From Trypanosoma brucei (taxonomy: Eukaryota): a DNA stretch of 64,000 nucleotides. The position numbers were made by a program. Where the stretch lies: the NCBI GenBank assembly GCA_000002445.1, contig AL929603.2:832001-896000 (forward strand). The letters are read 5' to 3'. Positions 57,601-60,600 of this stretch are shown here, piece by piece (positions within the stretch are counted from its first letter, which is position 1; each line of letters starts with the position of its first letter).

Positions 57601-60600
57601 ACTAATACTACAACTCGCCGTTTTCTCGATTCTTTTTTCTTTTTTTTTTTTACTGTTTCGTTCTGCTCTTTTTTTTAAAATTATTTGAAATGTGCTAATC
57701 CTTTTTTTTCTTTTCTTTATTTGTTTGTGAGTTTCTCCCCCCCTGTATTTTAGCCCCTCCTCACATATATATATATATATTGTTTTACATGCGGTCACAA
57801 TCAGCTTCACTTTTACTTCCCTTTCTCTTTTATATTCCTGTAGTTGCACGTTCAATAATATTATGATTATTGAAATGATTGTTGCTACTATTGTTCTTTC
57901 CGTGCTGTTAAAGGCTACGAGGGTTATGGACAATTTATTTTTTTTAGTCATTACTGATGTTTAAACAATTTCACTACATAAAATAATAATAATAATATAA
58001 TATTATTATGTTTGTCATTTATTATTTCTCATCATTACGTTTCTCCCTCTTTCTCTCTCTCTTTCTCGTGTTTCTTTCCTTTCATAAAAGGTAGAATATT
58101 CATTGCTGAATCCAAACCGTCCGTCAGTGTAAAGTATTTGGACATAAACATAAAAAAAAAAAGACACACGCGCACACGTACACACGCAGCTGTGTACAGT
58201 AAAAGCCGAATCAAACGTGCTCTCGTTTTTTTTTCCACCCCGTCCTGACTTTTTTTTTTTCGTTGTCATTTTTTCCTCAGCGATCGGAATAACAACAACA
58301 ACACCAACAAAAAAGAAAACAAAAGGAGGGGAGGATTTCTTGAGCAGAGTTGTGTGACTGCTCAGTGAGATTTTTGAGGTGAACAGCCATCAAAGTTTCA
58401 GATACGGGTGTGATAAACTCATACGGAAGGAAAGCCTGAAAGAGAAAGAAAAGGAAGGGAATTGACGTTGGTATTTGTGTTTGAACAAAGGATAAGGGTG
58501 ATTTAGAAGAGGGAAAGAAGGGAAAAAAAAAAAAAAGAAACTAAAAGAAAAAAAACAAAGAAAAGGAAAAAAGAGAATTGGATTATAGGGAAGTAGGCGG
58601 AAAGAAAGAAGAGGATAGTGAGATTAGAAGGAAAGAGGGAAGACAAAAGCAGGAGGCCGTAAAAGAATAGAACTGGTGCCTTCCTGTGCAGGTGGGTGCG
58701 TGTTTCCACACTCTTGGGAGCAAGGGGACATACATACATATTGATAAGGAGGGAGAGAGAAGGTAAAAGGAAGGAAGAAGAAGGAAAACCACAACAAAAA
58801 AAAGGAAGGAACCGAACACAGCGGCCGTGGGGTTTGTCAACGACTGTCACTTTCACTTGAGTGAAGGGACGTTATAACAACAACAACAATAACAAAGGGA
58901 ACACAGGGCAAAAATCCAAGTTGAAAATGGAGAACGACTATCCCGTTAACCTGCGAGTGGATATCGCTCCTGAAGATGGCACGGTTATGCTTCCCGGAAG
59001 CATAACCATCACCCGCACCACCGTTTCCGTGTTCAAGTTGCGTGAATCCACGGATGAGGAGCCGCTGTTTATTGGCGTGTGCTCCGTCCCATTAATTAAG
59101 TTCTCCCGCTGCCCCAGTACAGTCTTTCCGAGAACCGATGCCCTTTTGCTGACGAGCGTCTCGGGGCATCTTTTTATTAACGCCGCCCTCACAGCTGGAG
59201 TGGTGCCACCAGAGGAAAGTGGGCTCGGGACCCCGAGCTCTAGTGCCAGTGACATCGCACGCAGTCATGCATCAGGAACCCGGCGAGACTCTGTTGATGA
59301 GCGCCGTAAGAAAATTGACAACCCCGGCCTTTGGACACGACTACGGCTGGAGTTTCGCGACAACGACGACTGCGACCGCTGCGTTGAGGCCCTCCTCGCG
59401 CGCCACGCAGAGGAGCTTAATTCACGCGGTACATCATCCACAAGTTCCCTCTCTAAGTCTCACTCCCAAAACGATGTTACGGGTGCGTCACGTAGTCGCA
59501 GGGATTCTTCCATGCGCACACACAGTGGCCCACGGCGCAGTACACACAGCGAGTCGACCAGGTCAACGGAGAGTTCGATGAGGAGCACACAGGAGGACTT
59601 AGTCCGAAGTTCGCGCGGTGGAGAGAGCCGCAACAGTCGCGGTGACGCAAGCAGATCTGGTGGAACTCCATTAAGAAGTGCGCCAGATGACTCCCGACGT
59701 TCCCGTGGCCCAGAGAGCCATTCCGTCCGCAGCGACACAACAAGAACGGGTGGGACTCCGTCGAGGGGTGGGCCAGATGATGTCCGACACTCTCGAGGCC
59801 CTGATAGCCATTCCAGTCGCAGTGACACAACAAGAACAGGTGCAACTCCATTAAGAAGTGCGCCAGATGACTCCCGACGTTCCCGTGGCCCAGAGAGTCA
59901 CGTCACCCGCAGCGAGACTAGCAGATCAGCAGGGACTCCCTTAAGGAGCGCGCATAACGAAACGGCCCGCAATAGCCGCAGTGAGGCAAGCAGATCTGGT
60001 GGAACTCCATTAAGAAGTGCGCCAGATGACTCTCGACGCTCCCGCGGCCCGGAGAGCCATTCCGTCCGCAGCGACACGACAAGAACGGGTGGGACTCCGT
60101 CGAGGGGTGGGCCAGATGATGTTCGGCACTCTCGAGGCCCTGATAGCCATTCCAGTCACAGTGAGCTGAGCAGGTCTGGTGGAACGCCCCCACGAAGTGC
60201 GCCAGATGCTATGTTCCGACATTCCCGTGGCCCCGATAGTCAAACTACCCGCAGTGAAGCGAGCAGGTCGGTCAGGAGCTCCTCAAAGCACTCACCCGCT
60301 GGTGCAGGCAGATCAACGGGAACGACTAGGTCAAGTGGAACAGCCCTTCCCGCCGGAGCTGGTGTCAGCGAAATGATGCACACGTGCCGCAGCGGACCGA
60401 CGTACATGGAGGGCTCATGCACGAGTTCTAATGCCCGCCGAAACGGTGGGATCCATCACGGGTCGGACCGGACACCCATCCGTGCTGGTCGAGGTCCCGC
60501 GGACGGCGATTCCGAATCAGATGCAGCCTCATCTGCTGTGGACATCCGACGGCATGGCCGGAGCAGCGTAACCAGTAGCGCCAGCAGGGGCAGTGGTTTG

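What the first reader, a model, noticed from the sequence alone, without database searches (positions are those of the whole stretch)
59590..60300. 90-nt coding tandem repeats with 339-nt higher-order structure inside a ~1640-aa coiled-coil protein
The 30-aa units (GGTPLRSAPDDSRRSRGPESHSVRSDTTRT alternating with GGTPSRGGPDDVRHSRGPDSHSSRSDTTRT) are near-identical at the nucleotide level, and a 339-nt block is duplicated. This implies recent expansion or gene conversion. Such arrays in trypanosomatids are typical of cytoskeletal or flagellar repeat proteins and immunodominant antigens, and are often collapsed in assemblies. Copy number here may therefore be under-represented.
Basis: seen in the sequence. 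Interest (0 to 1): 0.6.

Follow-up and report, generated by a model that had tools for sequence, protein, structure and literature searches.

The report
Repeat array in trypanosome FAZ2 protein
The repeat is real, but it lies in the disordered, phosphorylated linker of FAZ2, a well-studied Trypanosoma brucei protein that anchors the flagellum and is already listed as repeat-containing, so it is an ordinary feature with a few new details.

Summary
Window 59569-60270 carries seven to eight in-frame units of about 90 nt (A1, B1, A', a 69-nt unit, A2, B2 and a 93-nt unit C). A block of about 196 nt (tail of the leading unit, A, and most of B) recurs 339 nt downstream at 94% identity. Codon shuffles never exceed 56%.

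The host ORF (58927-63843, 1638 aa) is 100% identical to Tb927.1.4310, which is FAZ2 of T. brucei TREU927. FAZ2 is an essential flagellum-attachment-zone filament protein, and a 2016 review already tabulates it as "coiled coils: yes, repeats: yes".

The array is not in the coiled coil. It sits in a Ser/Arg-rich region that AlphaFold2 predicts to be disordered, between an N-terminal PH/PTB-like domain and the conserved C-terminal half. It is translated and phosphorylated (pS264; phosphopeptide SRGPESHVTR).

Strain comparison shows gene conversion between units and one in-register 90-nt loss. An independent assembly has the same unit number, so collapse in this window is not indicated.

Other Trypanosoma orthologues have their own arrays at the same place, around a shared core G-[TL]-P-x-R-S-x-P-x-x-S-R-R. 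Antigenicity has not been tested.

Verdict: a known gene and a known kind of feature, of low interest.

The parts
58927..63843 (+). FAZ2 (Tb927.1.4310) coding sequence, 1638 aa plus stop codon
   Evidence: 100% identical to XP_001219124.1 / Q4GYE7 of T. brucei TREU927. Pfam FAZ1_cons scores 31.9 bits against a cut-off of 27.5.
58927..59421 (+). N-terminal conserved domain (aa 1-165), predicted PH/PTB-like fold
59422..61086 (+). Ser/Arg/Gly/Thr/Pro-rich predicted disordered linker (aa 166-720) that contains the array
   Evidence: Composition is S22 R15 G11 T9 P7 %. pLDDT is below 50 with no secondary structure for aa 167-480. The region does not align between species outside the core motif.
59569..59658 (+). 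Degenerate leading unit u0 (ESSMRSTQEDLVRSSRGGESRNSRGDASRS)
   Evidence: It is 46-52% identical to the other units in register. Its last 30 nt belong to the duplicated block. The unit HMM gives a weak hit at aa 219-244.
59659..59748 (+). Unit A1 (GGTPLRSAPDDSRRSRGPESHSVRSDTTRT); contains T247-P-L-R and phosphosite S264
   Evidence: pS264 has localisation probability 0.999996 in supplement file 4 of PMC6907760.
59749..59838 (+). Unit B1 (GGTPSRGGPDDVRHSRGPDSHSSRSDTTRT)
59839..59928 (+). Unit A' (GATPLRSAPDDSRRSRGPESHVTRSETSRS); source of phosphopeptide SRGPESHVTR (59881-59910)
   Evidence: The phosphopeptide is listed for Tb927.1.4310 in PMC12222847.
59929..59997 (+). Truncated 69-nt unit (AGTPLRSAHNETARNSRSEASRS)
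   Evidence: The unit HMM gives a partial hit at aa 336-351.
59998..60087 (+). Unit A2, with the same 30 aa as A1 and 5 synonymous nucleotide differences
60088..60177 (+). Unit B2 (GGTPSRGGPDDVRHSRGPDSHSSHSELSRS)
60178..60270 (+). Unit C, 93 nt (GGTPPRSAPDAMFRHSRGPDSQTTRSEASRS)
59629..59824 (+). Higher-order duplicated block, copy 1 (tail of u0 + A1 + most of B1)
   Evidence: There are 12 differences in 196 nt against copy 2. The repeat finder family D1 gives an offset of 339.
59968..60163 (+). Higher-order duplicated block, copy 2 (tail of the short unit + A2 + most of B2)
61801..62049 (+). FAZ1_cons domain (aa 959-1041)
   Evidence: Pfam PF23398, E 1.2e-07. Many columns are invariant across orthologues.
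63454..63840 (+). Nearly invariant C-terminal domain (aa 1510-1638) with sub-threshold PDZ similarity
   Evidence: Pfam PDZ/PDZ_6 score about 14 bits, below the cut-offs. The best PDB hits are PDZ domains at E 0.14 or higher. The AF2 model was poor.

Best explanation
The feature is a short, imperfect tandem array of seven to eight ~30-aa Ser/Arg/Thr/Pro-rich modules. It lies in the intrinsically disordered linker of FAZ2, the essential flagellum-attachment-zone filament protein of Trypanosoma brucei. The linker sits between an N-terminal PH/PTB-like domain and the conserved coiled-coil / FAZ1_cons / C-terminal half.

Shown here:
- The array is in frame.
- It is translated and phosphorylated.
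- Its units exchange sequence by gene conversion, and units are lost in register between strains.
- Its peptide sequence is under purifying selection.
- Other Trypanosoma species carry their own arrays of different period at the same position, built around a shared core G-[TL]-P-x-R-S-x-P-[DT]-[DN]-S-R-R.

Inferred: the array is a lineage-specific expansion of an ancient short linear motif. It probably works as a multivalent, phosphorylation-regulated spacer or docking region during FAZ filament assembly. Each T. brucei unit offers one T-P-x-R site (canonical CDK-type consensus) and one observed or equivalent G-P-E/D-S phospho-acceptor. The exact unit number is tolerated to vary.
For: Identity of the gene: it is 100% identical to Tb927.1.4310. 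FAZ localisation, immunoprecipitation and proximal assembly were shown for that gene ID (PMC4406125). Its depletion blocks FAZ assembly, and Table 1 lists 184 kDa, coiled coils yes, repeats yes (PMC4827413).

Disorder: pLDDT is below 50 with no secondary structure over aa 167-480. No stretch in aa 166-720 runs longer than 28 residues without a Pro or Gly.

Expression and phosphorylation: pS264 lies in unit A, and the phosphopeptide SRGPESHVTR is unique to unit A'. FAZ2 is described as 'heavily phosphorylated' (PMC7218301).

Selection: across the well-aligned 54 codons of the two blocks there are 7 synonymous changes and 1 non-synonymous change. All 9 array differences between TREU927 and IVM-t1 are synonymous.

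Gene conversion: the 4-site haplotype at 59694/59700/59706/59712 and its partners at 60033/60039/60045/60051 swap between A1 and A2 among three strains. The 2-site haplotype at 59784/59787 swaps between B1 and B2. SNP density is 1.28% in the array and 0.43% in the rest of the gene (Fisher p = 0.01).

Unit loss: T. equiperdum OVI has a clean 90-nt deletion that creates an A2/B2 hybrid unit.

Comparative evidence: repeat periods are 75 aa (34+41) in a congolense-like protein, 67 aa in T. theileri and T. melophagium, and 66 aa in T. cruzi. There is little or no expansion in T. rangeli, T. conorhini and T. c. marinkellei. An unbiased local alignment of unit A to each orthologue's linker picks GLP[AV]RSNPT[DN]SRRE in every stercorarian or theileri-clade species, with shuffle p = 0.002-0.05.

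CDK-type sites: 7 of the 10 [ST]-P-x-[KR] sites in the protein are in the array, one per unit.
Against: No experiment addresses the array itself. Published FAZ2 work used whole-gene RNAi, knockout or tagging.

Phosphorylation of the T-P-x-R threonines was not found in the supplement text available to me. That file was truncated, and the tryptic peptide SGGTPLR is short.

The CK1.2 peptide assay for FAZ2 was negative (PMC12222847).

The core-motif conservation is only moderately significant (p 0.002-0.05). It is not detectable in three non-Trypanosoma trypanosomatid orthologues, two with p 0.65 and 0.87. The third reaches p 0.012, but that alignment does not fall on the core motif.

Variation in copy number between strains, and near-absence of expansion in T. 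rangeli and T. conorhini, show that a long array is not needed for FAZ2 function in general.
Confidence: 0.6

Rival explanations
1. The array is a neutral by-product. Replication slippage and unequal crossing-over expand and contract a low-complexity segment of a disordered linker. The segment only needs to be flexible and hydrophilic, and the units have no sequence-specific role.
For: Unit number differs between strains (7 versus 6) and between species. Unit length and sequence are lineage-specific, and the linker is otherwise unalignable. Some species have almost no array.
Against: Differences between paralogous units and between strains are almost all synonymous (7:1 and 9:0). A 13-residue core recurs across the genus. 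The units are phosphorylated in vivo. However, the whole gene shows 25 synonymous and 2 non-synonymous differences, so the constraint is not special to the array.
Confidence: 0.3
2. The array is mainly relevant as an immunodominant B-cell epitope array. This would be like the tandem-repeat antigens GM6/ClpGM6 and H49, which are also FAZ proteins, and was the first reader's suggestion.
For: By established knowledge, tandem-repeat cytoskeletal proteins of trypanosomatids are often strong antibody targets. H49 and GM6 are FAZ repeat proteins used or proposed for serodiagnosis (PMC3214072 and PMC3808341, listed).
Against: No paper that mentions Tb927.1.4310 or FAZ2 reports seroreactivity. There are only seven units of 64-94% identity. 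Tandem Repeats Finder sees 2.9 copies with score 325, far from the long, near-perfect arrays of known repeat antigens. The protein is intracellular.
Confidence: 0.07
3. The array structure in this window is an assembly artefact: collapsed, expanded or chimeric.
For: The array does trouble assemblers. DAL972 has a 94-N gap inside it (L002 2343-2436). Three short-read contigs start exactly at the 30-mer shared by B1 and B2.
Against: The IVM-t1 hybrid MiSeq/PacBio assembly has the same unit order and length, with 9 of its own synonymous differences. Every unit carries private variants that allow ordering. The frame is intact, and peptides from units A and A' have been observed. The IVM-t1 chromosomes may have been scaffolded on TREU927, so independence is not absolute.
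Confidence: 0.03

Closest known systems
FAZ2 (Tb927.1.4310) of Trypanosoma brucei, as described by Sunter et al. 2015 and summarised by Sunter & Gull 2016
   Same: It is the same gene, with 100% protein identity. The literature already records it as a 184-kDa FAZ filament protein with coiled coils and repeats.
   Different: The papers I could read do not describe the repeat itself. Not described are the unit sequence, the 339-nt offset duplication, the strain variation, the conserved core motif, or the position of the array in the disordered linker. The review lists 'no domains', whereas Pfam now finds FAZ1_cons and the N-terminus models as a PH/PTB-like fold.
FAZ1 (Tb927.4.3740), the 'repetitive protein essential for the FAZ filament' (Vaughan et al. 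2008, cited)
   Same: It is a FAZ filament protein of similar size. It shares the FAZ1_cons domain and has an internal coding tandem array.
   Different: By my own knowledge, FAZ1 has a long array of many short repeats that make up much of the protein and carry monoclonal-antibody epitopes. FAZ2 has only about seven 30-aa units in a disordered Ser/Arg-rich linker. I did not compare the sequences here.
ClpGM6 / T. cruzi H49 calpain-like FAZ proteins with 68-aa repeats (PMC3214072, PMC3808341)
   Same: They are FAZ-associated repeat proteins of trypanosomes whose repeat number varies and is hard to assemble.
   Different: They are giant proteins with tens of near-identical 68-aa repeats, located in the FAZ flagellum domain, and are proven antigens. 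The FAZ2 array is short and imperfect, lies on the cell-body side, and has not been tested for antigenicity.
Multisite CDK-substrate clusters in disordered regions of eukaryotic proteins (general class; canonical motif (pS/pT)-P-x-(R/K) as used in PMC6907760)
   Same: There is one T-P-x-R per unit, clustered in a disordered Ser/Arg-rich region of a protein whose assembly is tied to the cell cycle.
   Different: Phosphorylation of these threonines has not been shown. The only mapped sites are the G-P-E-S serines. The motif is T-P-x-R/K only in T. brucei and the congolense-like protein, not in stercorarian orthologues.

Membership tests
FAZ2 orthologue group (Tb927.1.4310) | Full-length sequence identity to the annotated T. 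brucei protein | tested here: met
   100% identity over 1638 aa to XP_001219124.1.
FAZ2 orthologue group (Tb927.1.4310) | Shared architecture: N-terminal domain, HHRLHFMQYLHKE helix, FAZ1_cons, invariant C-terminal domain | tested here: met
   Alignment A1 of 9 Trypanosoma orthologues. Pfam FAZ1_cons is above its cut-off.
FAZ2 orthologue group (Tb927.1.4310) | Localisation to the FAZ filament and requirement for FAZ assembly | not testable with these tools
   Taken from the literature for this gene ID (PMC4406125; PMC4827413).
Coding tandem repeat with higher-order repeat structure | Head-to-tail in-frame units of constant period | tested here: met
   Periods are 90, 90, 90, 69, 90, 90 and 93 nt, all multiples of 3.
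Coding tandem repeat with higher-order repeat structure | Block-to-block identity exceeds unit-to-unit identity | tested here: met
   A1/A2 94.4% and B1/B2 86.7%, against 64-77% for A versus B.
Coding tandem repeat with higher-order repeat structure | The whole 339-nt block is duplicated | tested here: not met
   Only about 196 nt are about 94% identical. Identity over the full 339 nt is 70%.
Trypanosomatid tandem-repeat antigens (GM6, H49, K39 type) | Long array of many near-identical units | tested here: not met
   Seven units of 64-94% identity. Tandem Repeats Finder reports 2.9 copies, 73% matches and score 325.
Trypanosomatid tandem-repeat antigens (GM6, H49, K39 type) | Recognition by sera of infected hosts | not testable with these tools
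   No report was found for FAZ2.
Coiled-coil region | The array lies within heptad-repeat helical sequence | tested here: not met
   The AF2 model has no helix and pLDDT below 50 over the array. A crude heptad scan finds candidate segments only at aa 137-166 (within the N-terminal domain), 803-865, 1218-1295 and 1380-1479. The protein as a whole is listed as coiled-coil in PMC4827413.
PH/PTB-like superfold (N-terminal domain) | Seven-stranded beta-sandwich capped by a C-terminal helix, with structural similarity to solved PH/PTB domains | tested here: met
   [not shown]
PDZ domain (C-terminal domain) | Score above the Pfam gathering threshold, or a confident structural match | tested here: inconclusive
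   PF00595 scores 14.3 bits (cut-off 23.2) and PF17820 scores 13.9 bits (cut-off 27). The best PDB sequence hits are PDZ domains but at E 0.14 or higher. The AF2 model has pLDDT 44.5.
Multisite CDK-type substrate cluster | Several [ST]-P-x-[KR] sites clustered in a disordered region | tested here: met
   Seven sites (T247, 277, 307, 337, 360, 390 and 420), one per unit, out of 10 in the protein.
Multisite CDK-type substrate cluster | Those sites are phosphorylated in vivo in a CDK-dependent way | not tested
   Only pS264 and the SRGPESHVTR phosphopeptide were found. The supplement file was truncated.

The most novel reading that the evidence does not exclude
The ~30-aa unit is an ancient, genus-wide short linear motif (G-[TL]-P-x-R-S-x-P-x-x-S-R-R). 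It has been amplified independently in several Trypanosoma lineages because its valency matters. In this reading the array is a multivalent, phosphorylation-switched interface that recruits a FAZ partner, or the PH/PTB-like N-terminal domain of a neighbouring FAZ2 molecule. Unit number and phosphorylation state would then tune assembly or stiffness of the FAZ filament through the cell cycle and life cycle.
Probability: 0.12. Interest if true: 0.5.

Novelty: already known. Interest (0 to 1): 0.2.

Why it matters
FAZ2 is essential for flagellum attachment, cell length and cytokinesis in T. brucei, yet no region of it has been assigned a function. Four things would give FAZ researchers a concrete, testable handle on FAZ2 regulation:
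- the exact map of the array;
- the finding that it lies in the phosphorylated disordered linker rather than the coiled coil;
- the genus-wide core motif;
- the predicted PH/PTB-like head domain.

On the practical side, the 1581-aa T. b. gambiense DAL972 model is an artefact of a sequence gap inside the array, and short-read assemblies break there. Comparative or population analyses of this gene therefore need long reads. Beyond that, the feature is an ordinary example of repeat evolution in a trypanosomatid cytoskeletal protein.

Tried and rejected
- Searching the 5.8-billion-protein collection with the array alone (aa 190-480) returned nothing, not even the protein itself. The cause was presumably composition filtering. 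That search was wasted, and no further strain alleles were obtained.
- Self-BLASTP to find internal repeats gave no off-diagonal hits. I replaced it with an offset autocorrelation and a unit HMM.
- I first read the shorter T. b. gambiense protein (1581 aa, 57 aa shorter) as copy-number variation. I rejected this after seeing 94 Ns inside the array and a gene range that is not a multiple of three.
- The AF2 model of the C-terminal 167 aa was too poor (pLDDT 44.5) to test the PDZ idea.
- Zhou et al. 2015 (PMC4524107), the other primary FAZ2 paper, is not held. Supplements of PMC7218301 and PMC12222847 are not held.
- My first regex count of the core motif was designed after seeing the sequences, so its shuffle control is not a fair test. 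I replaced it with an unbiased local alignment against shuffled linkers.
- The LPSRRE doublets in three unnamed non-Trypanosoma orthologues looked like the same motif. They did not reach significance, so I do not claim homology.
- My first heptad scan used thresholds that were too strict and found nothing. A looser scan is reported only as a crude indication.
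Full report
**1. The observation**

Tandem Repeats Finder reports a period-90 array at 59659-59915 (2.9 copies, 73% matches, score 325). The ungapped repeat finder gives a seven-copy family with start-to-start spacings of 90, 90, 90, 159, 90 and 93 nt. It also aligns 59628-59869 with 59967-60208 at 89%, an offset of 339 nt.

Cutting the region in register gives these units:
- u0, 59569-59658, degenerate
- A1, 59659-59748
- B1, 59749-59838
- A', 59839-59928
- a truncated 69-nt unit, 59929-59997
- A2, 59998-60087
- B2, 60088-60177
- C, 60178-60270, 93 nt

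The second B unit (60088) matches the quoted sequence only over its first 23 residues and ends SHSELSRS.

Identities are:

| Pair | Identity |
|---|---|
| A1/A2 | 94.4% |
| B1/B2 | 86.7% |
| A1/A' | 85.6% |
| A versus B | 64-77% |

So 'near-identical' holds only for like units.

The higher-order duplication is a block of about 196 nt, 59629-59824 against 59968-60163. It has 12 differences, which is about 94% identity. The 339 nt is the spacing between the copies. Over the full 339 nt the identity is only 70%.

The repeat is far beyond chance. The best 90-nt in-frame self-identity is 0.967, against a maximum of 0.556 in 200 codon shuffles of the same region.

**2. What the gene is**

The only long ORF over the region runs from 58861 to 63843 on the + strand. 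From its first ATG at 58927 it encodes 1638 aa. These are 100% identical to XP_001219124.1 / Q4GYE7 of Trypanosoma brucei brucei TREU927, on a 1,064,672-nt contig. All 16 non-overlapping ORFs of at least 200 aa in the window are on the + strand (the only three minus-strand ORFs each lie inside a longer + strand ORF), as expected for a kinetoplastid polycistron.

T. cruzi orthologues are named 'Flagellum attachment zone protein 2'. The gene ID Tb927.1.4310 is FAZ2. It was found by immunoprecipitation with FAZ1, and eYFP tagging localises it along the whole FAZ. [quoted passage not shown] Depletion blocks FAZ assembly and causes flagellum detachment. Table 1 of Sunter & Gull 2016 lists FAZ2 as 184 kDa, 'No domains', coiled coils 'Yes', repeats 'Yes' (PMC4827413).

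The presence of repeats in this protein is therefore already on record. The papers I could read do not describe them further. Zhou et al. 2015 was not available.

**3. Where the array sits in the protein**

Alignment of nine Trypanosoma orthologues shows five parts:
- a conserved N-terminal domain (aa 1-165);
- a variable Ser/Arg/Gly/Thr/Pro-rich region (aa 166-720);
- a conserved helical segment (HHRLHFMQYLHKE...);
- the FAZ1_cons domain (Pfam PF23398, aa 959-1041, 31.9 bits against a cut-off of 27.5);
- a long charged helical region followed by a nearly invariant C-terminal domain.

An AlphaFold2 model of aa 1-480, built on the orthologue alignment, gives a confident beta-sandwich plus helix for aa 1-165. 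For aa 167-480 pLDDT is below 50 and there is no secondary structure at all.

A crude heptad scan finds coiled-coil-like segments only at aa 137-166 (inside the N-terminal domain), 803-865, 1218-1295 and 1380-1479. The linker has no stretch longer than 28 aa free of Pro and Gly.

So the protein is a coiled-coil protein, but the array (aa 219-448) lies in its predicted disordered linker.

**4. The array is expressed and modified**

Benz & Urbaniak's cell-cycle phosphoproteome lists Tb927.1.4310 pS264 with localisation probability 0.999996. Its sequence window is LRSAPDDSRRSRGPESHSVRSDTTRTGGTPS, which is unit A (supplement file 4 of PMC6907760).

A 2025 study lists the phosphopeptide SRGPESHVTR, which occurs only in unit A', among five FAZ2 phosphopeptides (PMC12222847). 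FAZ2 is described as 'heavily phosphorylated' in T. brucei and T. evansi (PMC7218301).

Each unit also contains one T-P-x-R. Seven of the ten [ST]-P-x-[KR] sites in the protein are in the array, one per unit. This is the canonical CDK motif used in PMC6907760. I found no direct evidence that these threonines are phosphorylated.

**5. How the array evolves**

I fetched the DNA of three other Trypanozoon assemblies and aligned it.

- *T. equiperdum IVM-t1.* This is a hybrid MiSeq/PacBio assembly (PMC6395869). It has the same unit order and the same 1638-aa protein. It differs at 9 array positions, all synonymous: 59784, 59787, 59919, 60021, 60024, 60033, 60039, 60045 and 60051. That is 1.28% divergence, against 0.43% in the rest of the gene (Fisher p = 0.01).
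- *Swapped variants.* Six of these nine differences are paralogous variants changing places. In TREU927 a linked four-site haplotype reads C,T,T,A in A1 (59694/59700/59706/59712) and T,C,C,G in A2 (60033/60039/60045/60051). In IVM-t1 it is C,T,T,A in both units, and in OVI the T,C,C,G type sits in A1. Likewise B1 of IVM-t1 carries the B2 haplotype of TREU927. This is the signature of gene conversion or unequal exchange between units.
- *T. equiperdum OVI.* It lacks exactly 90 nt, which produces an A2/B2 hybrid unit. I cannot exclude a short-read collapse there.
- *T. b. gambiense DAL972.* The protein is 57 aa shorter, but this is not evidence of variation. The locus has 94 Ns inside the array, and the gene model is joined around them.
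- *Short-read contigs.* Three contigs from separate sequencing runs all begin at the 30-mer shared by B1 and B2.

For this window, the independent seven-unit assembly argues against collapse.

The two block copies differ by 7 synonymous changes and 1 non-synonymous change over their 54 well-aligned codons. This speaks for constraint on the peptide and against a very recent duplication.

**6. Comparison with other species**

An offset autocorrelation shows that orthologues have their own arrays in the same linker:

| Orthologue | Repeat period |
|---|---|
| Unnamed UniParc protein, 57% identical (T. congolense-like; my inference) | 75 aa (34+41) |
| T. theileri | 67 aa, about six copies |
| T. 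melophagium | 67 aa |
| T. cruzi | 66 aa, two copies |
| T. c. marinkellei, T. conorhini, T. rangeli | essentially none |

An HMM of the T. brucei unit does not find these arrays at significant scores. However, a local alignment of unit A against each linker picks the same site in every stercorarian and theileri-clade species:
- T. brucei unit: GTPLRSAPDDSRRS
- Other species: GLP[AV]RSNPT[DN]SRRE

Composition-preserving shuffles give p = 0.002-0.05. The congolense-like units (GTPSRGAPDDVGRH) are clearly homologous (p = 0.001).

A search of 1.84 billion representative proteins with the N-terminal domain found three further unnamed trypanosomatid orthologues. They have the same overall architecture. 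In these the motif is not significantly detectable.

I infer that there is an old ~30-35-aa module with a conserved core. It has been expanded or homogenised separately in several Trypanosoma lineages. Independent expansion and concerted evolution of an ancestral array cannot be told apart with these data.

**7. Most likely mechanism and rivals**

*Best reading (confidence about 0.6).* The array is a lineage-specific expansion of a short linear motif in the phosphorylated, disordered linker of FAZ2. It evolves by unequal exchange and gene conversion. It serves as a multivalent, phospho-regulated spacer or docking region during FAZ assembly.
- Shown: disorder (predicted), expression, phosphorylation at the G-P-E-S serine, gene conversion, synonymous-only divergence, and motif conservation within the genus.
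- Inferred: any role in docking or regulation, and use of the T-P-x-R sites.

*Main rival (about 0.3).* The array is a neutral low-complexity expansion with no sequence-specific role. Variable unit number and species with almost no array favour this. The synonymous-only differences and the conserved core argue against it. The whole gene is under strong purifying selection, however (25 synonymous and 2 non-synonymous differences).

*Antigen reading (about 0.07).* It has no supporting data and fails the 'long near-perfect array' criterion.

*Assembly artefact in this window (about 0.03).* It is contradicted by IVM-t1 and by the observed peptides.

**8. Novelty and score**

The gene, its location in the cell, its essentiality and the bare fact that it contains repeats are already published. 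Coding repeat arrays are commonplace in trypanosomatid cytoskeletal and FAZ proteins such as FAZ1, ClpGM6/H49 and FLAM3.

The modest additions here are:
- the exact anatomy of the array;
- its position in the disordered linker;
- the gene-conversion evidence;
- the genus-wide core motif;
- the artefactual DAL972 model;

I rate the finding 'already known' with interest 0.2. The most novel reading not excluded is a valency-tuned phospho-switch, possibly read by the PH/PTB-like head domain. I give it about 0.12 probability, and it would merit about 0.5 if true.

Noticed in passing
[not shown]
   Followed up: partly
window 63454-63840 (FAZ2 aa 1510-1638): The C-terminal domain is almost invariant across Trypanosoma and in three unnamed non-Trypanosoma trypanosomatid proteins (ending ...FLVQVLRGCDIFQIIVKS). 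It shows only sub-threshold PDZ similarity (Pfam about 14 bits; harmonin PDZ E 0.14). The AF2 model was too poor to decide.
   Followed up: partly
L002 2343-2436 (T. b. gambiense DAL972, FN554964.1): A run of 94 Ns lies inside the FAZ2 array. The gene range (4844 nt) is not a multiple of three, and the annotated 1581-aa protein is joined around the gap. Its apparent loss of 57 aa is therefore an assembly and annotation artefact.
   Followed up: yes
L004, L005, L006 position 1 (Logan contigs of ERR7929161, ERR7929157, ERR7929164): Three short-read contigs all start at ACTCTCGAGGCCCTGATAGCCATTCCAGTC. This 30-mer is shared by units B1 (window 59789) and B2 (60128), and the contigs continue as B2. 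The de Bruijn graph breaks at the duplicated block.
   Followed up: yes
P0004 aa 340-740 (T. theileri); P0005 aa 280-560; P0006 aa 265-400 (T. cruzi); P0003 aa 275-470: FAZ2 orthologues carry their own tandem arrays at the equivalent linker position. Periods are 67 aa (about six copies) in T. theileri, 67 aa in T. melophagium, 66 aa (two copies) in T. cruzi, and 75 aa (34+41) in the congolense-like protein. T. rangeli, T. conorhini and T. c. marinkellei are barely expanded.
   Followed up: partly
P0017 aa 225-275, P0018 aa 255-290, P0020 aa 225-260: Three unnamed trypanosomatid FAZ2-like proteins from Logan assemblies each have two close copies of S-R-L-P-S-R-R-E. This may be the counterpart of the Trypanosoma core motif. 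Similarity to the T. brucei unit was not significant at the motif.
   Followed up: partly
window 57296-57333, 57000-57047 and 58514-58788: The intergenic region upstream of FAZ2 holds a perfect (TGTCATT)5.4 microsatellite and a T-rich tract. A long A/G-rich tract lies just before the FAZ2 start codon.
   Followed up: no
window 54299-55774, 39775-41064, 36073-38352: Upstream neighbours on the same strand are a DnaJ-domain protein, an RNase H2 subunit B-like protein (Ydr279 family) and a leucine-rich-repeat protein. ORFs at 41932-43212, 44435-46804 and 49086-51182 have no Pfam match.
   Followed up: no
P0019 (UniRef100_A0A0A9WY92, labelled Lygus hesperus 'Larvicidal toxin 51 kDa protein'): A 155-aa entry from a plant-bug transcriptome matches the FAZ2 N-terminal domain (E 1.8e-06). 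It is probably a trypanosomatid contaminant or parasite transcript with a wrong name.
   Followed up: no
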